From the NCBI GenBank assembly GCA_001794055.1, contig MGJB01000018.1, positions 1 through 49,304 on the forward strand: 49,304 bases of DNA, read 5' to 3'. The translations under genes were made by a program, and so were the position numbers. This stretch comes from Candidatus Yanofskybacteria bacterium RIFCSPHIGHO2_01_FULL_41_26. GTDB taxonomy: Bacteria > Patescibacteriota > Minisyncoccia > 2-02-FULL-40-12 > GWA2-44-9. Shown here one piece after another: positions 8,351 through 46,376 of the stretch (position 1 is the first letter of the stretch; each line of letters starts with the position of its first letter). Under the pieces are notes generated by a model, which worked only from the letters and a program-made list of their open reading frames with translations, did no database searches and was not told where the DNA came from.

Positions 8351-8935
8351 TTACTCTTTGTTTTTTAATTCTAGATATAATTTTTTTAAACGATTCAAGT
8401 AATTTAGAGCTCTATCCCGTTCAAGACCAGTTAGTTTTGTCATAATTAGCAAGCGAATTTGATCGTGGTTATATGCTTTTTGAGATTCATCATTCCAGGG
8501 GTAAAAATCATCTAAATAAACCATATTACCGTCGTTATCTTCAACGAAATTCTGCGTACTTTCATCAAACTCGATCCCACAATCTTTTAGTTGTTTCCGT
8601 AACGTATAAAGGTCTTCGATTTTTTCTTCTCTAATCGATATTGTTTCTCTTGACTTAAATTTAATTTTTTCTTTCGTTATTGTCCTTGGTTGAGTGGTAG
8701 TCATAAAAACATCCGGTACATTTTTCGGAAATAACATATGCAAAATTTTGGTAAAGTAGAACTTGGCTTTGTTAAATTCAGGTGACCTTTCAAACTTAAA
8801 TTCTGCTTCAATTTTGTAAATTCCCACCACTTTTTCATCTTTATCTGGGTGTGGATAGACGACTTTTTCACCTCCATCACCTATTTCTTTTTGAGCTTCT
8901 ATCCTGTTTTTTATGAATTCTTTAAATTCTTCCAT
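8351..8935 (-). CDS. hypothetical protein, possibly a minimal protein-kinase-like fold
   Basis: ATG at 8935 (MEEFKEF...). By eye: Gly-rich loop IGDGGEKVVY, Lys in VVGIYKIE, DESTQN (DxxxxN) and VYLDDF (DFG-like). No database check. Confidence 0.5.
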   Translation of the reverse strand: MEEFKEFIKNRIEAQKEIGDGGEKVVYPHPDKDEKVVGIYKIEAEFKFERSPEFNKAKFYFTKILHMLFPKNVPDVFMTTTQPRTITKEKIKFKSRETISIREEKIEDLYTLRKQLKDCGIEFDESTQNFVEDNDGNMVYLDDFYPWNDESQKAYNHDQIRLLIMTKLTGLERDRALNYLNRLKKLYLELKNKE

Positions 8936-9800
8936 ATTTATTTTTATAAAAATTAGCAACTCCCATCAATATTGCTTTTGATTTTTCTTTGTTTCTATTA
9001 ATTACTAATTTACCCAGTTGCTTAATTATTATTACCCAGCTCCACGGATAGACAGCCAGTTTAATATACCACGGTCCATTTTTCAAATTAAAATACAGGG
9101 CATTGCGGTAATGATATCTCAAAAGCATCGGTGAGCCCAATTTTTTAGCTGAAGCAGAAACGGAGTGAGAGATTTTGATTTCGGGGAAGAAAGATACCGG
9201 AACCATTGCCTTTCTGGCTCTTTGACAAAAATCAGCATCTTCAAAATATAAAAAATAATTTTCGTTTAGAAATCCAATTTTATCAAAAACATTCTTATGT
9301 ATTGCCATCGCCCCCCCGATGACATATAAGTTATCCACAGATTTTATGTTACCGACTTGCGAAGTCGGTAAGTGGATAAGTGTCGGTTTTAACCACTGGA
9401 TCAAGCCGGCAAAAACGGTCCTGTTCCCCTCATCTAAAGCTAGGCCAATAATCCCATCCTTGCCTTCCAAAATGGCCTTTAGACGTCCTGTAAACGTGTC
9501 TTCGGCCCAAGTATCATTATTAAGTAAAAGCACCCAATCCGTCCCTCCACCGGCTGGCGGATCGAGGGCCTTTTTGATGCCTATGTTATTGCCACCGGAG
9601 AAACCAAGATTTCGGTCATTCTTAATGTAACTTATATTAGTTTCTGTGGTTTGGTAAGTCATCAGTTTTTCTACATCATCAGAGTTATTATCTACTACAA
9701 TAATTTCAAAATCCTTGTCGGCTTGGTTTTTTAGTGATTCCAACAGTTTTATCGTGTTTTCTGAGCCGTTGTAATTGATTGTAATTATAGTTAATTTCAC
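8922..9800 (-). CDS. glycosyltransferase family 2
   Basis: MKLTIITINYNGSENT...IIVVDNNSDD and LLLNNDTW (DxD region). Contains two in-frame palindromic segments (see findings). Confidence 0.8.
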   Translation of the reverse strand: MKLTIITINYNGSENTIKLLESLKNQADKDFEIIVVDNNSDDVEKLMTYQTTETNISYIKNDRNLGFSGGNNIGIKKALDPPAGGGTDWVLLLNNDTWAEDTFTGRLKAILEGKDGIIGLALDEGNRTVFAGLIQWLKPTLIHLPTSQVGNIKSVDNLYVIGGAMAIHKNVFDKIGFLNENYFLYFEDADFCQRARKAMVPVSFFPEIKISHSVSASAKKLGSPMLLRYHYRNALYFNLKNGPWYIKLAVYPWSWVIIIKQLGKLVINRNKEKSKAILMGVANFYKNKYGRI

Positions 9801-10014: not shown

Positions 10015-11091
10015 CTATTGACCGCTATTCGTCAATTGAATTACTTCTGTCCTAAACCTTTCTCTTGAAAATTTTTCGGCCCATTTTTGAATGATAAGCG
10101 GGCTGTAATTAAGATAGTTTTCGTTTAATCGGCGGATGCCGTCAGCAAGGGCCTCCGGTATCGGATCATCAAAGAATTCTCCTGTCACACCTTCAACCAT
10201 TGTTTCCAGAGCCCCCCCTTTTTGGAGAGCTAAAACCGGTTTACCAAAACTCATTGCCTCAAGGGGCGTAAGACCAAAATCTTCTTCCTGGGGCATGATG
10301 AATGCCTTGCAGTTTCGGTAATATTCAACAATCTCGTCATCTGTTTTAAATCCGAGAATTTTTATATTTTTACTGGCTATTTTTTTCAGATCTTTTTTAG
10401 CCGGTCCATCTCCTATAACAATGAGTTCATATCCTAGTTTATTAAAAGCATCTATTGCCACGTCAATATTTTTGTGAGGAAAAAGCCGACTAACTATTAA
10501 GTAGAAGGGGCTGAGCGGTAGTCTTGGAGCCACCGGTCCCATCGCATTTAATACTGTTGGCGGATATATTAATCTAGATTCTTTGCCATAATACTTTTTA
10601 ATTCTTGCCTGAACAGTTTTGGAGATAGCCACGAATTCATCTACCCTATCGGAGGCTTGTCGGTCCCAGATTCTTAATAAATGACGGGACAGTCCTGCCA
10701 ATCTTCCTTGATTGCTGTTTTCTGAATGTCTATCCCACAAGAATCTAGTCGGACTGTAGCAATAGCAGATATGTTTTGTTTTGGGTTTTAACACCAACCC
10801 CTTTGCAAATATAACAGATGAGGATATGACGATATCAAAGTTGGACAGATCAAAGGATTCAACTGCTGAAGGCATTAAAAAAAATAAGTATTTATAGAGT
10901 TTTGTTATGAATGGAATTTTCTGAAGAGAACTGATTCTGATTTCGGCTTCGGGCAGAAATTCCCGAACAAATTTTTTATTATAAAAAAGGACATATATCG
11001 GTGCCGTTGGAAAAATCTTATGAAGTTCTATCAACACACGCTCGGCTCCTCCCAAATTATTTAGCCAATCGTGGACTAGAGCGATTTTCAT
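10015..11091 (-). CDS. glycosyltransferase family 4 (GT-B fold)
   Basis: MKIALVHDWLNNLGGAERVL N-terminus and EEDFGLTPLEAMSFGKPVLAL (E-x7-E). Confidence 0.8.
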   Translation of the reverse strand: MKIALVHDWLNNLGGAERVLIELHKIFPTAPIYVLFYNKKFVREFLPEAEIRISSLQKIPFITKLYKYLFFLMPSAVESFDLSNFDIVISSSVIFAKGLVLKPKTKHICYCYSPTRFLWDRHSENSNQGRLAGLSRHLLRIWDRQASDRVDEFVAISKTVQARIKKYYGKESRLIYPPTVLNAMGPVAPRLPLSPFYLIVSRLFPHKNIDVAIDAFNKLGYELIVIGDGPAKKDLKKIASKNIKILGFKTDDEIVEYYRNCKAFIMPQEEDFGLTPLEAMSFGKPVLALQKGGALETMVEGVTGEFFDDPIPEALADGIRRLNENYLNYSPLIIQKWAEKFSRERFRTEVIQLTNSGQ

Positions 11092-21502: not shown

Positions 21503-22472
21503 AAAGAATTTTGGTGAATTCTTCTTCATTTTTCGCCTGCATGAGTTTTGTGCGTAATTCTTTAGCACCGTCAAAGCCGGAGATGTAGATTTTGAAAAAT
21601 TTTTTCATGACATCAAAGTTTTTCGCCTGCCCTGAGCTTGTCGAAGGGTCACCCCAGAGTTCAATAAATAATCCCATGTGTTTTTTTAGAAGTTCAATTT
21701 TTTCTTGAGGTGTTTTTGTAGCAGGGTCTATTGAGGGATTGAAAATCCAGGGATTGCGGAATATTCCTCTGCCGACCATTATTCCGTCTAAGTCATATTG
21801 TTTGGCTTTTTCCAAACCCTCCGCATAACTAACCACATCCCCATTGCCTATTACTGGTATACCCGCTTTTCGGCAAAGCAATCCTGCTTTACCTATTTCA
21901 TCCCAATGAGCCGGAACCTTAGACATTTCCTTCATTGTTCTGCCGTGGATAATTATCGCGTCTGGCTCGGCTTCAATAAGATATGATATCCACTCTTCCG
22001 TAATTATCTTGTTGTAGCCAATACGAGTTTTGATAGAAACAGGCATCCGCCGGCCGGCGGATGCCGCTCCCCGCTTGGTCTCCCTGATTATTTCTTTCGC
22101 CAGTTCAGGAGTTCGTATCAGTCCTGCTCCGCAATCGTGTTTGACTATTTTTCCTGCCGGACAACCCATGTTTATATCGATTCCGTCAAAGCCAAGTTCT
22201 ACGGCGCGTTGGGCACATTTATAAAAATTCTTGGGATTAGCTCCAAAAAACTGGGCTACGATAGGACGTTCATTTTTCTTGAATGCCAAATGAAGCATTA
22301 ATTTAGGCCGGCCTTTTTCGGAACATAATCCGTCACAAGAAACAAATTCAGTATAAAAAACATCAGGTTTACCGGTTTCACATATAATCTGCCGGAATGC
22401 CATGTCCGTTACATCTGCCATCGGCGCCAAAACAAAAAAGGGCCTGGGAAATTGTTGCCAAAAATTTGACAT
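21495..22472 (-). CDS. dus: tRNA-dihydrouridine synthase
   Basis: FVLAPMADVTDMAFRQI, DINMGCPA (catalytic Cys), IIHGRT. Contains an in-frame 24-nt perfect palindrome. Confidence 0.85.
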   Translation of the reverse strand: MSNFWQQFPRPFFVLAPMADVTDMAFRQIICETGKPDVFYTEFVSCDGLCSEKGRPKLMLHLAFKKNERPIVAQFFGANPKNFYKCAQRAVELGFDGIDINMGCPAGKIVKHDCGAGLIRTPELAKEIIRETKRGAASAGRRMPVSIKTRIGYNKIITEEWISYLIEAEPDAIIIHGRTMKEMSKVPAHWDEIGKAGLLCRKAGIPVIGNGDVVSYAEGLEKAKQYDLDGIMVGRGIFRNPWIFNPSIDPATKTPQEKIELLKKHMGLFIELWGDPSTSSGQAKNFDVMKKFFKIYISGFDGAKELRTKLMQAKNEEEFTKILSE

Positions 22473-39717: not shown

Positions 39718-39724
39718 AAAAATT

Positions 39725-39832
39725 GAGCGACACCTAATCCCAAAGAAGAACGTTCGGAGGCTACCCCGGGCCGAGAGAGAGCAAAAAATCAGAATATTTT
39801 TATGCGGTCTGATTTGGGATGAGGTGGAGCGA
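39725..39832 (+). repeat. 108-nt hairpin repeat family, copy 2
   Basis: Differs from copy 3 at only two positions by eye (gagcgacacctaatc[ct]caaagaagaacgttcggaggctaccccgggccgagagagagcaaaaaatcagaatatttttatgcggtctgatttgggatgaggt[ga]gagcga). Ends 4 nt from the rny stop codon. Confidence 0.85.
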
Positions 39833-41737: not shown

Positions 41738-41782
41738 AAAGGCGCAGCCTCAACATTTTTTGTCTTTTGTAAATTAATAAAT

Positions 41783-41890
41783 GAGCGACACCTAATCTCA
41801 AAGAAGAACGTTCGGAGGCTACCCCGGGCCGAGAGAGAGCAAAAAATCAGAATATTTTTATGCGGTCTGATTTGGGATGAGGTAGAGCGA
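41783..41890 (+). repeat. 108-nt hairpin repeat family, copy 3
   Basis: See copy 2. Lies 38 nt upstream of the gpmI start. Confidence 0.85.
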
Positions 41891-45215: not shown

Positions 45216-46376
45216 TCACAAAACTATTCCTCCGCCAAGAAGTTCTCCTTTTTTGTAAAATACTGCCGATTGGCCCGAGGTTATGGCTCTTTCGGAGTTT
45301 TCTAATTCTAATTCGCTGTTTTTATTTAGAACGGCTTGTTTTAATCCGGCTCGATAACGTAAGCGGACATCCAGTTGTTTCGGAAGCTTTGGTTCTTCGC
45401 TAACCCAGCTTATGTCTGAAACTTTGAATTTGTTTGAATAGAGGTCCTTATCGTCGCCGACGTAGATAATATTTTTTTTGATATTTTTGGAAACCACATA
45501 GTATGGTCCTTCGCCGATTCCAATATTCAACCCGTGTCTTTGGCCGATTGTATAATAGTAAACTCCATCATGAGTCCCCAAGATTCTTCCGTCTAAATGA
45601 ATAATGTCTCCCTTTTTTATTTTAATCTTAGTTTGCAAAAAATCCTTCATATCCAGAGGCCCAATAAAACAAACACCCTGACTGTCTTTTTTGTCATGAT
45701 TCGGTAATCCAAATTTTTTAGCCAGTTTTCTGATTTCTGGTTTAAGGTAATCCCCTATCGGAAATAAGCATTTCGCCAGCTGTTTCTGTTTCAAAGTCCA
45801 CAAAAAATACGATTGGTCTTTCGCGCTGTCGCGCGCGGTGAGTAGTGAATAGCGAATAGTGAGTAGTCGTTTTCTACTTACCACGTTCCACTTTCTACTT
45901 TCTCGTTTTCTTACATAATGTCCCGTGGCAATAAAATCTGCCCCTTCTTTCATTGCCTTATCAAAAAACAGGCCAAATTTGATTTCTTTGTTGCACATCA
46001 CATCAGGATTTGGAGTTCTTCCGGCTTTATATTCTCTTATCATATAATCAGTCACGGATCTTTTATATTGTTTTGAGAAGTCCCATGTTTTAAAAGGTAT
46101 GTCCAATACTGATGCCACCCTCATCGCTTCCTCCCTATCCTCTTTCCACATACACTTATCCACAGAATTGGCCATACCGACTTGCGAAGTCGGTAATGAG
46201 AAATTTGTGGATAAGTCAGGACTCCAGGGTTTCATGAATACTCCGACTACATTAAACCCCCGCCTTGCCTCGCCGAAGCCCCGCGAAGGCGGGTTCTTCA
46301 ACAAAGCAGCGGCAACAGATGAATCCACTCCCCCCGACATTGCAACGTAGACTTTTTTCGCCATTTGACTTTTCAT
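45216..46376 (-). CDS. mnmA: tRNA-specific 2-thiouridylase MnmA, carrying hairpin-encoded insertions
   Basis: PP-loop VAMSGGVDSSVAAALL, REYKAGRTPNPDVMCNKEIKF, ATGHYVR, DQSYFLW. Has extra segments relative to canonical MnmA. Confidence 0.85.
   Translation of the reverse strand: MKSQMAKKVYVAMSGGVDSSVAAALLKNPPSRGFGEARRGFNVVGVFMKPWSPDLSTNFSLPTSQVGMANSVDKCMWKEDREEAMRVASVLDIPFKTWDFSKQYKRSVTDYMIREYKAGRTPNPDVMCNKEIKFGLFFDKAMKEGADFIATGHYVRKRESRKWNVVSRKRLLTIRYSLLTARDSAKDQSYFLWTLKQKQLAKCLFPIGDYLKPEIRKLAKKFGLPNHDKKDSQGVCFIGPLDMKDFLQTKIKIKKGDIIHLDGRILGTHDGVYYYTIGQRHGLNIGIGEGPYYVVSKNIKKNIIYVGDDKDLYSNKFKVSDISWVSEEPKLPKQLDVRLRYRAGLKQAVLNKNSELELENSERAITSGQSAVFYKKGELLGGGIVL

What the first reader, a model, noticed from the sequence alone, without database searches (positions are those of the whole stretch)
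46155..46215. The same nested-hairpin element is inserted in frame in two unrelated genes (mnmA and a GT2)
mnmA contains cttatccacaga-attggcca-taccgacttgcgaagtcggta-atgagaaattt-gtggataag (46155-46215). The GT2 gene contains ttatccacagattttatgt-taccgacttgcgaagtcggta-a-gtggataa (9331-9379). Both have an identical 21-nt core hairpin (9-bp stem, 3-nt loop) nested inside an outer inverted repeat, ttatccaca / tgtggataa. Both copies lie on the coding strand in the same orientation and translate to related peptides: LSTNFSLPTSQVGMANSVDK in MnmA and LIHLPTSQVGNIKSVDN in the GT2. From memory of E. coli MnmA, the corresponding region between the PP-loop segment and the conserved Cys region is about 17 aa shorter. 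This behaviour matches Rickettsia palindromic elements, which are mobile hairpin DNA tolerated as in-frame peptide insertions. I am not aware of it being established for this kind of genome.
Basis: partly seen in the sequence, partly recalled or inferred. Interest (0 to 1): 0.65.

Follow-up and report, generated by a model that had tools for sequence, protein, structure and literature searches.

The report
DnaA-box hairpin repeat inside essential genes
Two unrelated working genes of a tiny groundwater bacterium (Candidatus Yanofskybacteria) each carry, in frame, a copy of a small hairpin DNA repeat; in related genomes the same repeat brackets a transposase-like gene, and its outer arms are spelled exactly like the binding site of the replication initiator DnaA.

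Summary
An identical 21-nt hairpin (9-bp stem, 3-nt loop) nested in TTATCCACA/TGTGGATAA arms lies in frame in mnmA (46155-46215) and in a GT2 gene (9331-9379). None is expected by chance.

- Of 120 Yanofskybacteria MnmA sequences (window included), 49 have no insert at this loop, 18 carry this family and 53 carry unrelated inserts.
- The same arm-plus-hairpin units bracket a conserved Y1/HUH (RAYT-like) transposase gene that keeps its left-hand gene neighbours across Yanofskybacteria. So this is a REP-type repeat, not a relative of the Rickettsia elements.
- The inner stem co-varies (97% of cells paired; 5 of 10 pairs changed on both sides). The arms stay constant and equal the consensus DnaA box.
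- Between orthologues that share the core type, the element is far better conserved (third codon positions 82-94% identical) than the host gene (48-56%). That indicates turnover, copying or constraint on the DNA rather than neutral decay.
- In GT2 the element replaces the native loop almost length-neutrally.

I found no published description for CPR bacteria.

The parts
46155..46215 (.). Nested-hairpin element in mnmA, 61 nt, read in frame on the minus strand as LSTNFSLPTSQVGMANSVDK.
   Evidence: Folds at -16.8 kcal/mol as ssDNA (z about -7 to -8). Absent from 49 of 120 MnmA sequences.
46156..46164 (+). Left arm TTATCCACA, identical to the consensus DnaA box.
   Evidence: The 9-mer is quoted as the E. 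coli DnaA box in PMC5859110.
46175..46195 (+). Core hairpin TACCGACTT-GCG-AAGTCGGTA (9-bp stem, 3-nt loop).
   Evidence: The same 21-mer flanks Y1 transposase genes in L003 and L012.
46206..46214 (+). Right arm TGTGGATAA, the inverted DnaA-box 9-mer.
9331..9379 (.). Nested-hairpin element in the GT2 gene, 49 nt, read on the minus strand as LIHLPTSQVGNIKSVDN.
   Evidence: Folds at -13.4 kcal/mol. The orthologous copies in L005 and L008 keep the 21-nt core unchanged.
9350..9370 (+). Core hairpin, identical to the mnmA copy.
45216..46376 (-). mnmA (tRNA 2-thiouridine(34) synthase), intact, 386 aa.
   Evidence: Element residues 53-74 are modelled as coil with pLDDT below 50.
8922..9800 (-). GT2-family glycosyltransferase, intact, 292 aa.

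Best explanation
The element is a REP-type repeat of a Patescibacteria 'REPtron'. It is a short DNA unit made of a hairpin (invariant CGAC/GTCG in a 9-10-bp stem, 3-nt loop) plus a constant 9-10-nt tag, TTATCCACA(G).

In Yanofskybacteria genomes the same units bracket a conserved Y1/HUH tyrosine-transposase-like gene with fixed left-hand gene neighbours. This gene resembles RAYT, the REP-associated tyrosine transposase.

The most likely mechanism is inferred by analogy with IS200/IS605 transposases and RAYTs. The Y1 enzyme recognises the folded hairpin and tag on single-stranded DNA, and copies units into new sites or replaces existing ones. CPR genomes have little intergenic space, so some copies land in genes. 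Those that keep the frame and fall in permissive surface loops persist and are translated as floppy loops.

What is shown:
- the repeat family and its anatomy;
- its presence or absence among orthologues;
- its association with the Y1 gene;
- stem co-variation with constant arms;
- conservation of the element above that of its host genes.

What is inferred:
- the Y1 enzyme is the mobilising activity;
- the insert is translated;
- the DnaA-box arms have any role.
For: - **Repeat family.** The identical 21-nt core and arms sit in two unrelated genes.
- **Empty and filled mnmA sites at DNA level.** Empty sites read gac|aatgggggtctt|tgt (L014) and aaa|gttggtagtttt|tgt (L021). Filled sites carry TTATCCACA-N10-core-N10-TGTGGATAA (60 nt), or TTATCCACAG-N9-core-ATCCACAG (48 nt) followed by the native GGGGG codons.
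- **Scattered on the gene tree.** The family sits in 18 of 120 MnmA sequences and needs 13 parsimony changes; shuffled labels need 17 on average.
- **Y1 gene.** L003 1994-2659 and L012 158-826 match Pfam Y1_Tnp (4e-11), and the best NCBIfam model is REP_Tyr_transpos.
  - Among the 120 homologues listed, MPNHYH is kept in 114, Y[IV]H.NP in 115 and WSS in 119.
  - There are 5143 homologues, several of them named Candidatus Yanofskybacteria.
  - The left neighbours are the same in L022-L028 and L007: a 1200-1375-aa protein plus a 164-186-aa ORF.
- **Y1 flanks carry the same arm-plus-hairpin units.**
  - L003 and L012 have TACCGACTTGCGAAGTCGGTA, the window's core.
  - L025 has CGACAC-GGC-GTGTCG, the type seen in mnmA of L015, L019 and L020.
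  - L028 has TAACGATGTCGAACATCGTTA, the type seen in L007, and it would encode the ITMSDIV peptides seen in some GT2 orthologues.
  - Within L028, an in-gene copy matches the Y1-flank core at 20 of 21 bases.
- **Co-variation.** 97.2% of cells are paired, against 79.5% in shuffles (0 of 500 reach the observed value); 5 of 10 pairs change on both sides.
- **Conservation above the host gene.** The element is 88-94% identical (third positions 82-94%); the rest of the gene is 69-75% (third positions 48-56%).
- **Permissive position.** The loop is absent from solved MnmA structures and is modelled as low-confidence coil.
Against: - No Y1 gene lies in the window.
- Copy number looks low. Only three contigs per metagenome run match the 67-nt unit at 85% or better. 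The exact core occurs in only 9 metagenome loci and 3 genome loci. Classical REPs number in the hundreds.
- High-depth 31-nt unitigs show that the core is repeated in the community, but this cannot be assigned to one genome.
- The Y1 protein scores below NCBIfam's RAYT cutoff (45 bits against 80). It shows no sequence match to the solved E. coli RAYT structure, only a weak one to ISDra2 TnpA.
- The arrangement of tags around the hairpin differs between copies, and no common target sequence or cleavage site could be defined.
- One contig (L007) holds two different core types, so any homogenisation within a genome is incomplete.
- In GT2 the length-neutral replacement is not what simple transposition predicts.
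- There is no RNA or protein evidence of translation.
Confidence: 0.68

Rival explanations
1. Old, vertically inherited insertions kept by selection on the DNA or RNA. Each site was hit once long ago. The hairpin and the DnaA-box arms are then maintained because they do something for the cell, and the stems change by compensatory substitution. No ongoing mobility is needed.
For: - The GT2 copy is shared by orthologues at only about 75% amino-acid identity, with the 21-nt core unchanged.
- 51 of 121 GT2 sequences, down to about 55% identity, carry hairpin-type peptides at the same site.
- The arms are invariant while the stems co-vary.
- Copy number is low.
Against: - The mnmA pattern is patchy: 13 parsimony changes for 18 carriers. 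The gene tree is weakly resolved, however.
- The core types at orthologous sites are the same discrete types that flank Y1 genes. One would not expect that from independent drift.
- The two window copies have identical cores, whereas orthologous copies in other genomes differ.
- Two different right-end architectures occur at the same mnmA site.
Confidence: 0.2
2. Independent creation of the hairpins by template-switch or fold-back replication errors in loop-coding DNA, with no shared mobile source.
For: Template switching is a documented way to create perfect hairpins de novo (title and abstract of PMC10710096, seen). The mnmA loop is a hotspot for many unrelated inserts.
Against: Unrelated genes share the identical 21-nt core, the same 9-nt arms and similar linkers. 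The same units lie in intergenic DNA and around the Y1 gene. Independent origin cannot give that.
Confidence: 0.02
3. A conserved peptide module selected at the protein level, for example a binding loop LPTSQVG..SVDK, rather than a DNA element.
For: The same reading frame (LPTSQVG) is used in both mnmA and GT2.
Against: - Other copies are read in other frames or on the other strand: IPTCEVGN, LTMFDIV and TDIASR. Some copies are intergenic.
- Third codon positions are conserved at 82-94%.
- The peptides change wholesale between orthologues (LPTSQVG, ITTLKVV, ITMSDIV) while base pairing is kept.
- The segment is modelled as disordered coil.
Confidence: 0.02
4. The segment is present in the DNA but absent from the protein, because it is removed from the mRNA or bypassed by the ribosome.
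For: The strong hairpin, together with direct repeats (ATCCACAG...ATCCACAG) in one class of mnmA copies, is superficially like the T4 gene 60 bypass (own knowledge).
Against: - Every intragenic copy is open and in frame.
- The length differences at the mnmA site are multiples of three.
- No stop codon follows a take-off site.
- No Rfam family matches the three Y1-bearing loci that were searched.
- No RNA data were available to test this directly.
Confidence: 0.04

Closest known systems
REP / REPIN sequences with their RAYT (TnpA-REP) gene, the 'REPtron' of E. coli, Pseudomonas and Stenotrophomonas (PMC2817692, PMC3116915, PMC5581495, PMC6006769, PMC8266576)
   Same: - A short hairpin with a conserved tag beside its foot.
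- A Y1/HUH gene bracketed by copies of the repeat.
- The gene keeps one chromosomal neighbourhood across related genomes and diverges about as much as housekeeping genes do.
- Hairpin sequence types differ from one Y1 locus to another.
   Different: - Copies lie inside essential genes and are apparently translated; REPs are extragenic by definition.
- The tag is not GTAG or CGTC. It is a 9-mer identical to the DnaA box.
- Copy number appears to be a few per genome, not hundreds.
- The protein is below the curated RAYT threshold.
- The lineage is the candidate phyla radiation. A library search pairing CPR or Patescibacteria with REP, RAYT or REPIN terms returned no relevant paper among those listed.
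Rickettsia palindromic elements (RPE-1 to RPE-10; Ogata et al. 2000, as summarised in PMC10969869)
   Same: A palindromic repeat inserted in frame in unrelated housekeeping genes, at loops that tolerate extra residues and in a small, reduced genome.
   Different: - No sequence relation.
- 49-61 nt instead of about 100-150 bp.
- A candidate enzyme is linked to it (the Y1 gene); none is known for RPEs.
- The arms equal a DnaA box.
- In GT2 the element replaces the loop rather than adding to it.
IS200/IS605 insertion sequences and their transposase-less derivatives (IS608, ISDra2; background in PMC6006769)
   Same: A Y1 HUH enzyme with subterminal hairpins on both sides of its gene. Both loops point the same way in L003 and L012, as the left and right ends of IS608 do. 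Short derivatives lack the gene.
   Different: - The gene has a fixed chromosomal position and conserved neighbours, unlike an insertion sequence.
- No defined target tetranucleotide was found.
- The sequence relation to ISDra2 TnpA is only weak (E = 0.11).
[quoted passage not shown] 1990; Carr and Kaguni 2002; described in PMC6127211)
   Same: When the element folds as single-stranded DNA, its outer stem forms a duplex TTATCCACA, a DnaA box inside a hairpin.
   Different: This is a resemblance of sequence and geometry only. Neither DnaA binding nor helicase loading was tested, and the A site comes from a plasmid, not from a dispersed repeat.

Membership tests
REP/RAYT (REPtron) | A Y1 HUH tyrosine-transposase gene with the HUH motif and catalytic-tyrosine region intact. 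| tested here: met
   Pfam Y1_Tnp at 4e-11. Among the 120 homologues listed, MPNHYH is kept in 114 and Y[IV]H.NP in 115.
REP/RAYT (REPtron) | The protein reaches the curated RAYT model threshold (NCBIfam NF047646, REP_Tyr_transpos). | tested here: not met
   It is the best NCBIfam hit, but at 45.4 bits against a cutoff of 80. There is no sequence hit to the solved E. coli RAYT structure.
REP/RAYT (REPtron) | The gene is flanked by copies of the repeat that is dispersed elsewhere in the genome. | tested here: met
   Hairpin-plus-tag units lie on both sides of the gene in L003, L012, L022, L025 and L028. The same units lie in mnmA, GT2 and the large-protein gene.
REP/RAYT (REPtron) | A single-copy, vertically inherited gene, not a multi-copy insertion sequence. 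| tested here: inconclusive
   The left neighbours are conserved in L022-L028 and L007. Identities of 61-84% resemble those of MnmA. Copy number per complete genome was not counted.
REP/RAYT (REPtron) | Repeats are extragenic and number from tens to hundreds per genome. | tested here: not met
   Both window copies are intragenic. Only three contigs per run match the unit.
REP/RAYT (REPtron) | A conserved GTAG or CGTC tag at the foot of the hairpin (PMC3733652). | tested here: not met
   The conserved tag is TTATCCACA(G), or CTGTGGATAA on the other strand. It lies 0-11 nt from the stem.
Rickettsia palindromic elements | A palindromic repeat inserted in frame in unrelated protein-coding genes. 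| tested here: met
Rickettsia palindromic elements | Membership of the RPE-1 to RPE-10 sequence families, about 100-150 bp long, in Rickettsia. | tested here: not met
   The unit is 49-61 nt and the host is Yanofskybacteria. No RPE sequence was compared directly. Size and host come from PMC10969869.
Rickettsia palindromic elements | The insert is translated and lies on the protein surface. | tested here: inconclusive
   The frame is open, the loop is absent from solved MnmA structures, and the model shows coil with pLDDT below 50 at residues 53-74 (the model is only moderate, mean pLDDT 65). No proteomic data.
IS200/IS605 | A multi-copy mobile unit that inserts 3' of a fixed tetra- or pentanucleotide without target duplication. 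| tested here: inconclusive
   No common target was found. CC(N)GAC precedes both window copies. One mnmA class has ATCCACAG on both sides of the hairpin.
DnaA box | The 9-mer TTATCCACA. | tested here: met
   There are 41 perfect 9-mers in about 190 kb of non-redundant loci, against 2.0 expected. None lies in the three loci with empty sites. The loci were chosen for holding the element, so this shows that the arm is conserved, not a genome-wide excess.
DnaA box | Bound by DnaA. | not testable with these tools
   This needs a binding assay.

The most novel reading that the evidence does not exclude
The hairpins are mobile DnaA boxes. A domesticated Y1 enzyme spreads, and overwrites loops with, units whose folded outer stem is a high-affinity DnaA site. 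In a genome of about 1 Mb these units would supply dispersed DnaA-binding sites. They could titrate the initiator, or reload the helicase at hairpins on single-stranded DNA as the ABC-primosome 'A site' does. That would explain why the arms are invariant even inside essential genes, and why the element is conserved far above its host genes.
Probability: 0.15. Interest if true: 0.8.

Novelty: new variant of a known kind. Interest (0 to 1): 0.62.

Why it matters
- **It links two known phenomena.** In-frame selfish hairpins (known from Rickettsia) are joined here to REP/RAYT systems (known mostly from Proteobacteria, and extragenic by definition). The lineage is the candidate phyla radiation, where I found no published description of either.
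- **It offers a testable enzyme.** How palindromic repeats get into genes is unsolved for the Rickettsia elements. Here the Y1 protein is a candidate that can be purified and assayed.
- **It raises a mechanistic question.** The element is conserved above its host genes, and loops are replaced length-neutrally in GT2 and in the Y1 gene itself. This hints at copying that overwrites resident sequence, which simple insertion does not explain.
- **The DnaA-box arms suggest a link to replication** that can be tested directly.
- **Practical point.** Such inserts inflate and diversify CPR protein lengths (MnmA orthologues range from 332 to 483 aa). This affects alignments, orthology calls and structure prediction.

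Tried and rejected
- The copy count, the intragenic fraction and the Y1 gene of this genome could not be obtained.
- **First pattern search missed the copies.** The gapped pattern allowed a gap of only 8-38 nt; the mnmA copy has 41 nt between its arms, and the GT2 right arm has a mismatch.
- **Copy number from public runs was only partly informative.** These runs are kept as assembled contigs. Conserved gene parts attract many other organisms. Only three contigs per run match the 67-nt unit. 31-nt unitigs of depth 21-120 show the core is repeated in the community, but not in which genomes.
- **Pairing mnmA and GT2 from the same genomes by accession failed.** Almost no accessions were returned. 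One pair was inferred from a shared contig length.
- **No phage link.** A loose pattern gave 53 viral contigs, none with a stem of 8 bp or more and none with a Y1 gene, so all are chance matches.
- **Rfam** gave nothing in three loci that hold the Y1 gene.
- **The Dehalococcoidia hit (L002)** has the 21-mer but no arms. I treat it as chance or unrelated; about 0.3 exact hits are expected in 596 Gb by my own estimate.
- **Rejected readings:** assembly artefact, protein motif, and de novo template-switch hairpins (see the rival explanations).
- **Origin of replication considered.** I asked whether the DnaA-box cluster around the Y1 gene is a replication origin. The boxes are all arms of hairpin units and no dnaA or dnaN gene is nearby in the loci seen, so I do not propose it. 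It was not properly tested.
Full report
**1. The observation**

The sequence is as described. TACCGACTTGCGAAGTCGGTA occurs exactly at 9350-9370 and 46175-46195, and no occurrence is expected in shuffled sequence. In mnmA it is nested in TTATCCACA ... TGTGGATAA. In the GT2 gene it is nested in TTATCCACA ... AGTGGATAA. These are the only perfect copies of that 9-mer in the window.

Both units lie in intact minus-strand ORFs:
- mnmA, 45216-46376, 386 aa, which scores 406 bits on the NCBIfam equivalog against a cutoff of 284;
- a GT2 glycosyltransferase, 8922-9800, 292 aa.

As single-stranded DNA the units fold at -16.8 and -13.4 kcal/mol, 6-8 standard deviations below shuffles. Contigs of four public runs carry the mnmA unit unchanged, so it is not an assembly artefact. 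Earlier notes of this scan and the names of the protein hits place the genome in Candidatus Yanofskybacteria, a lineage of the candidate phyla radiation.

**2. Is it an insertion?**

*mnmA.* I aligned 40 sequences (65-80% identical, 332-483 aa) and classified 120 at this loop, the window included:
- 49 have a short native loop, such as PWQPKVGSFC;
- 18 carry this family;
- 53 carry unrelated inserts.

At DNA level the empty sites read gac|aatgggggtctt|tgt (L014) and aaa|gttggtagtttt|tgt (L021). Filled sites come in two forms:
- TTATCCACA-N10-core-N10-TGTGGATAA, 60 nt, taking the place of the four native codons (window, L013, L015, L019);
- TTATCCACAG-N9-core-ATCCACAG, 48 nt, followed by the native GGGGG codons (L010, L018, L020).

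On an MnmA tree built without this loop, the 18 carriers need 13 parsimony changes. Shuffled labels need 17 on average and at least 14. The tree is poorly resolved, so this shows only that the state is patchy.

The loop is absent from the solved MnmA structures 2HMA, 9HLV and 2DER. In an AlphaFold model of moderate quality (mean pLDDT 65), residues 53-74 are coil with pLDDT below 50.

*GT2.* Here 51 of 121 sequences carry hairpin-type peptides at this site, such as LPTSQVG, ITTLKVV, ITTRRVV and ITMSDIV; 33 of them also have the SVDK arm. The loop is only about 2.5 residues longer than in orthologues without the element. At DNA level the native KHIYNQVGLNNSRA (L029) stands where IHLPTSQVGNIKSVDNL stands in the window. 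In this gene, therefore, the element replaces the loop rather than adding 17 residues.

The two sites behave independently.

**3. What the element is**

Scans of public collections with the exact 21-mer gave 3 genome loci and 9 metagenome loci. Two of them, L003/L004 and L012, show a 221-222-aa gene flanked on both sides by the hairpin.

The protein has these properties:
- It matches Pfam Y1_Tnp (4e-11). The best NCBIfam model is REP-associated tyrosine transposase, at 45 bits, below the cutoff of 80.
- It has 5143 homologues at E of 1e-10 or better, several named Candidatus Yanofskybacteria. The 120 listed are 61-84% identical to the query apart from its exact copy.
- Among those 120, MPNHYH is kept in 114, Y[IV]H.NP in 115 and WSS in 119.
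- In five further loci the gene has the same left neighbours: a 1200-1330-aa protein and a 164-184-aa ORF on the other strand. L007, found through the 21-mer, is that same neighbourhood, cut off just before the Y1 gene.

A fixed position, together with divergence similar to that of housekeeping genes, is the signature of RAYTs rather than of insertion sequences (PMC5581495).

The flanks of each Y1 gene carry arm-plus-hairpin units:

| Locus | Core type | Also seen in |
|---|---|---|
| L003, L012 | TACCGACTT-GCG-AAGTCGGTA | the window's two copies |
| L022 | AAACGACTT ... AAGTCGTTT | (no other copy seen) |
| L025 | CGACAC-GGC-GTGTCG | mnmA of L015, L019, L020 |
| L028 | TAACGATGT-CGA-ACATCGTTA | L007; it would encode the ITMSDIV peptides of some GT2 orthologues |

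In L028, an in-gene copy in the large neighbouring protein matches the Y1-flank core at 20 of 21 bases and shares its linker.

Over 15 distinct cores, 97.2% of cells are paired, against 79.5% in shuffles (0 of 500 reach the observed value). Five of the ten pairs change on both sides. CGA/TCG is invariant and the adjoining C-G pair holds in 13 of 15 cores.

Copies are read in at least four reading frames on the two strands and also occur between genes, for example just 3' of dnaX in L001. The element is therefore a DNA repeat of the REP type, not a protein motif.

**4. Conservation**

| Comparison | Element, nucleotide identity (third positions) | Rest of the gene (third positions) |
|---|---|---|
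| Orthologues sharing the core type (GT2: window vs L005, L008; mnmA: window vs L013, L010) | 88-94% (82-94%) | 69-75% (48-56%) |
| Orthologues with a different core type (mnmA: window vs L015, L019) | about 65% | about 72% |

Neutral decay of an old insertion does not give this pattern. Three explanations remain open: recent re-insertion at the same site, copying from a master copy, or selection on the DNA itself.

A further hint of overwriting comes from the Y1 gene. In the L003/L012 lineage it contains, in frame and without any change of length relative to other lineages, a near-copy of its own hairpin (cttaccgacatcgcaagtcgg, encoding NLTDIASRK). L022, L025 and L028 have unrelated sequence there.

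**5. The arms**

TTATCCACA is letter for letter the consensus E. coli DnaA box (quoted in PMC5859110). The 9-mer is perfect 41 times in about 190 kb of non-redundant loci, against 2.0 expected. It is absent from the three loci whose sites are empty. The loci were selected for holding the element, so this measures conservation of the arm, not a genome-wide excess.

When the unit folds, its outer stem is a duplex DnaA box inside a single-stranded hairpin. That is the geometry of the ABC-primosome 'A site' (PMC6127211). Whether DnaA binds it is untested.

After reaching this point I found that earlier notes of this scan describe RAYT-like genes with DnaA-box hairpins in other Patescibacteria genomes. 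Those notes are unchecked leads, but they agree with my result.

**6. Copy number and limits**

From public runs, which are kept as assembled contigs, only three contigs per run match the 67-nt unit. 31-nt unitigs holding the core reach depths of 21-120 against an organism depth of about 9-23, so the core is repeated in the community.

No viral contig holds a true member of the family, and the window has no Y1 gene. I found no paper describing REP/RAYT systems or in-frame palindromic elements in CPR bacteria.

**7. Verdict**

By anatomy the element is a REP-type repeat of a RAYT-like system, with two unusual properties: copies sit in frame inside essential genes, and the arms equal the DnaA box. 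It is a new variant of a known kind.

The following remain inferences: the Y1 enzyme moves the element; the element is translated; the arms have a function.

Noticed in passing
window 46253-46300: A second in-frame insert in mnmA: a GC-rich hairpin (cccgcctt...aaggcggg) read as NPPSRGFGEARRGF. Among the 40 aligned sequences only the window and one orthologue have it at this site. In the metagenome contigs this stretch has summed depths of 66-199, against 9-23 for the organism, with many different flanks. It therefore looks like a much more abundant repeat family.
   Followed up: partly
window 45841-45900: A third variable segment of mnmA (ESRKWNVVSRKRLLTIRYSLLT). Orthologues carry at least five unrelated inserts of up to about 40 aa at the same position. 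Further hot spots lie downstream, and MnmA lengths range from 332 to 483 aa.
   Followed up: partly
window 9529-9573, 10507-10536, 22035-22087: Other GC-rich patches inside ORFs of a window that is 39.5% GC overall: DPPAGGGTDW in the GT2 gene, PVAPRLPLSP in the neighbouring glycosyltransferase, and RETKRGAASAGRRMPVS around the perfect palindrome GGCATCCGCCGGCCGGCGGATGCC. They are candidates for further in-frame repeat families.
   Followed up: no
L003 1700-1900, L025 2270-2440, L028 2240-2420, L007 5787-5804: A conserved non-coding stretch of about 100-110 nt lies upstream of the Y1 gene (taaatgcctttgaactgccgcgaaattagaaggtccga..aaggagggatttataatc..cgcgcagcagatcaaaag). It is shared by loci whose genes are only about 70% identical. 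No Rfam family matched in L003 or L025.
   Followed up: partly
L012 315-338 and L003 2151-2174: The Y1 transposase gene of this lineage carries an in-frame near-copy of its own flanking hairpin (NLTDIASRK), with no length change relative to other lineages.
   Followed up: partly
MnmA orthologues, loop after FMKPW: Sequences with an insert of any family nearly all read WSP before it, whereas empty sites mostly read WQP. This may be a footprint of the insertion or a target preference. CC(N)GAC precedes both window copies.
   Followed up: no
L006 1509-1565: This copy has a partial tandem duplication of the 3' half of the hairpin (..GCGAAGTCGGTAActaGCGAAGTCGGTAA..) at the end of an ORF.
   Followed up: no
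window 39718-39832 and 41776-41890: A 115-nt direct repeat, 97% identical, in two intergenic regions 2 kb apart. It is unrelated to the element studied here.
   Followed up: no
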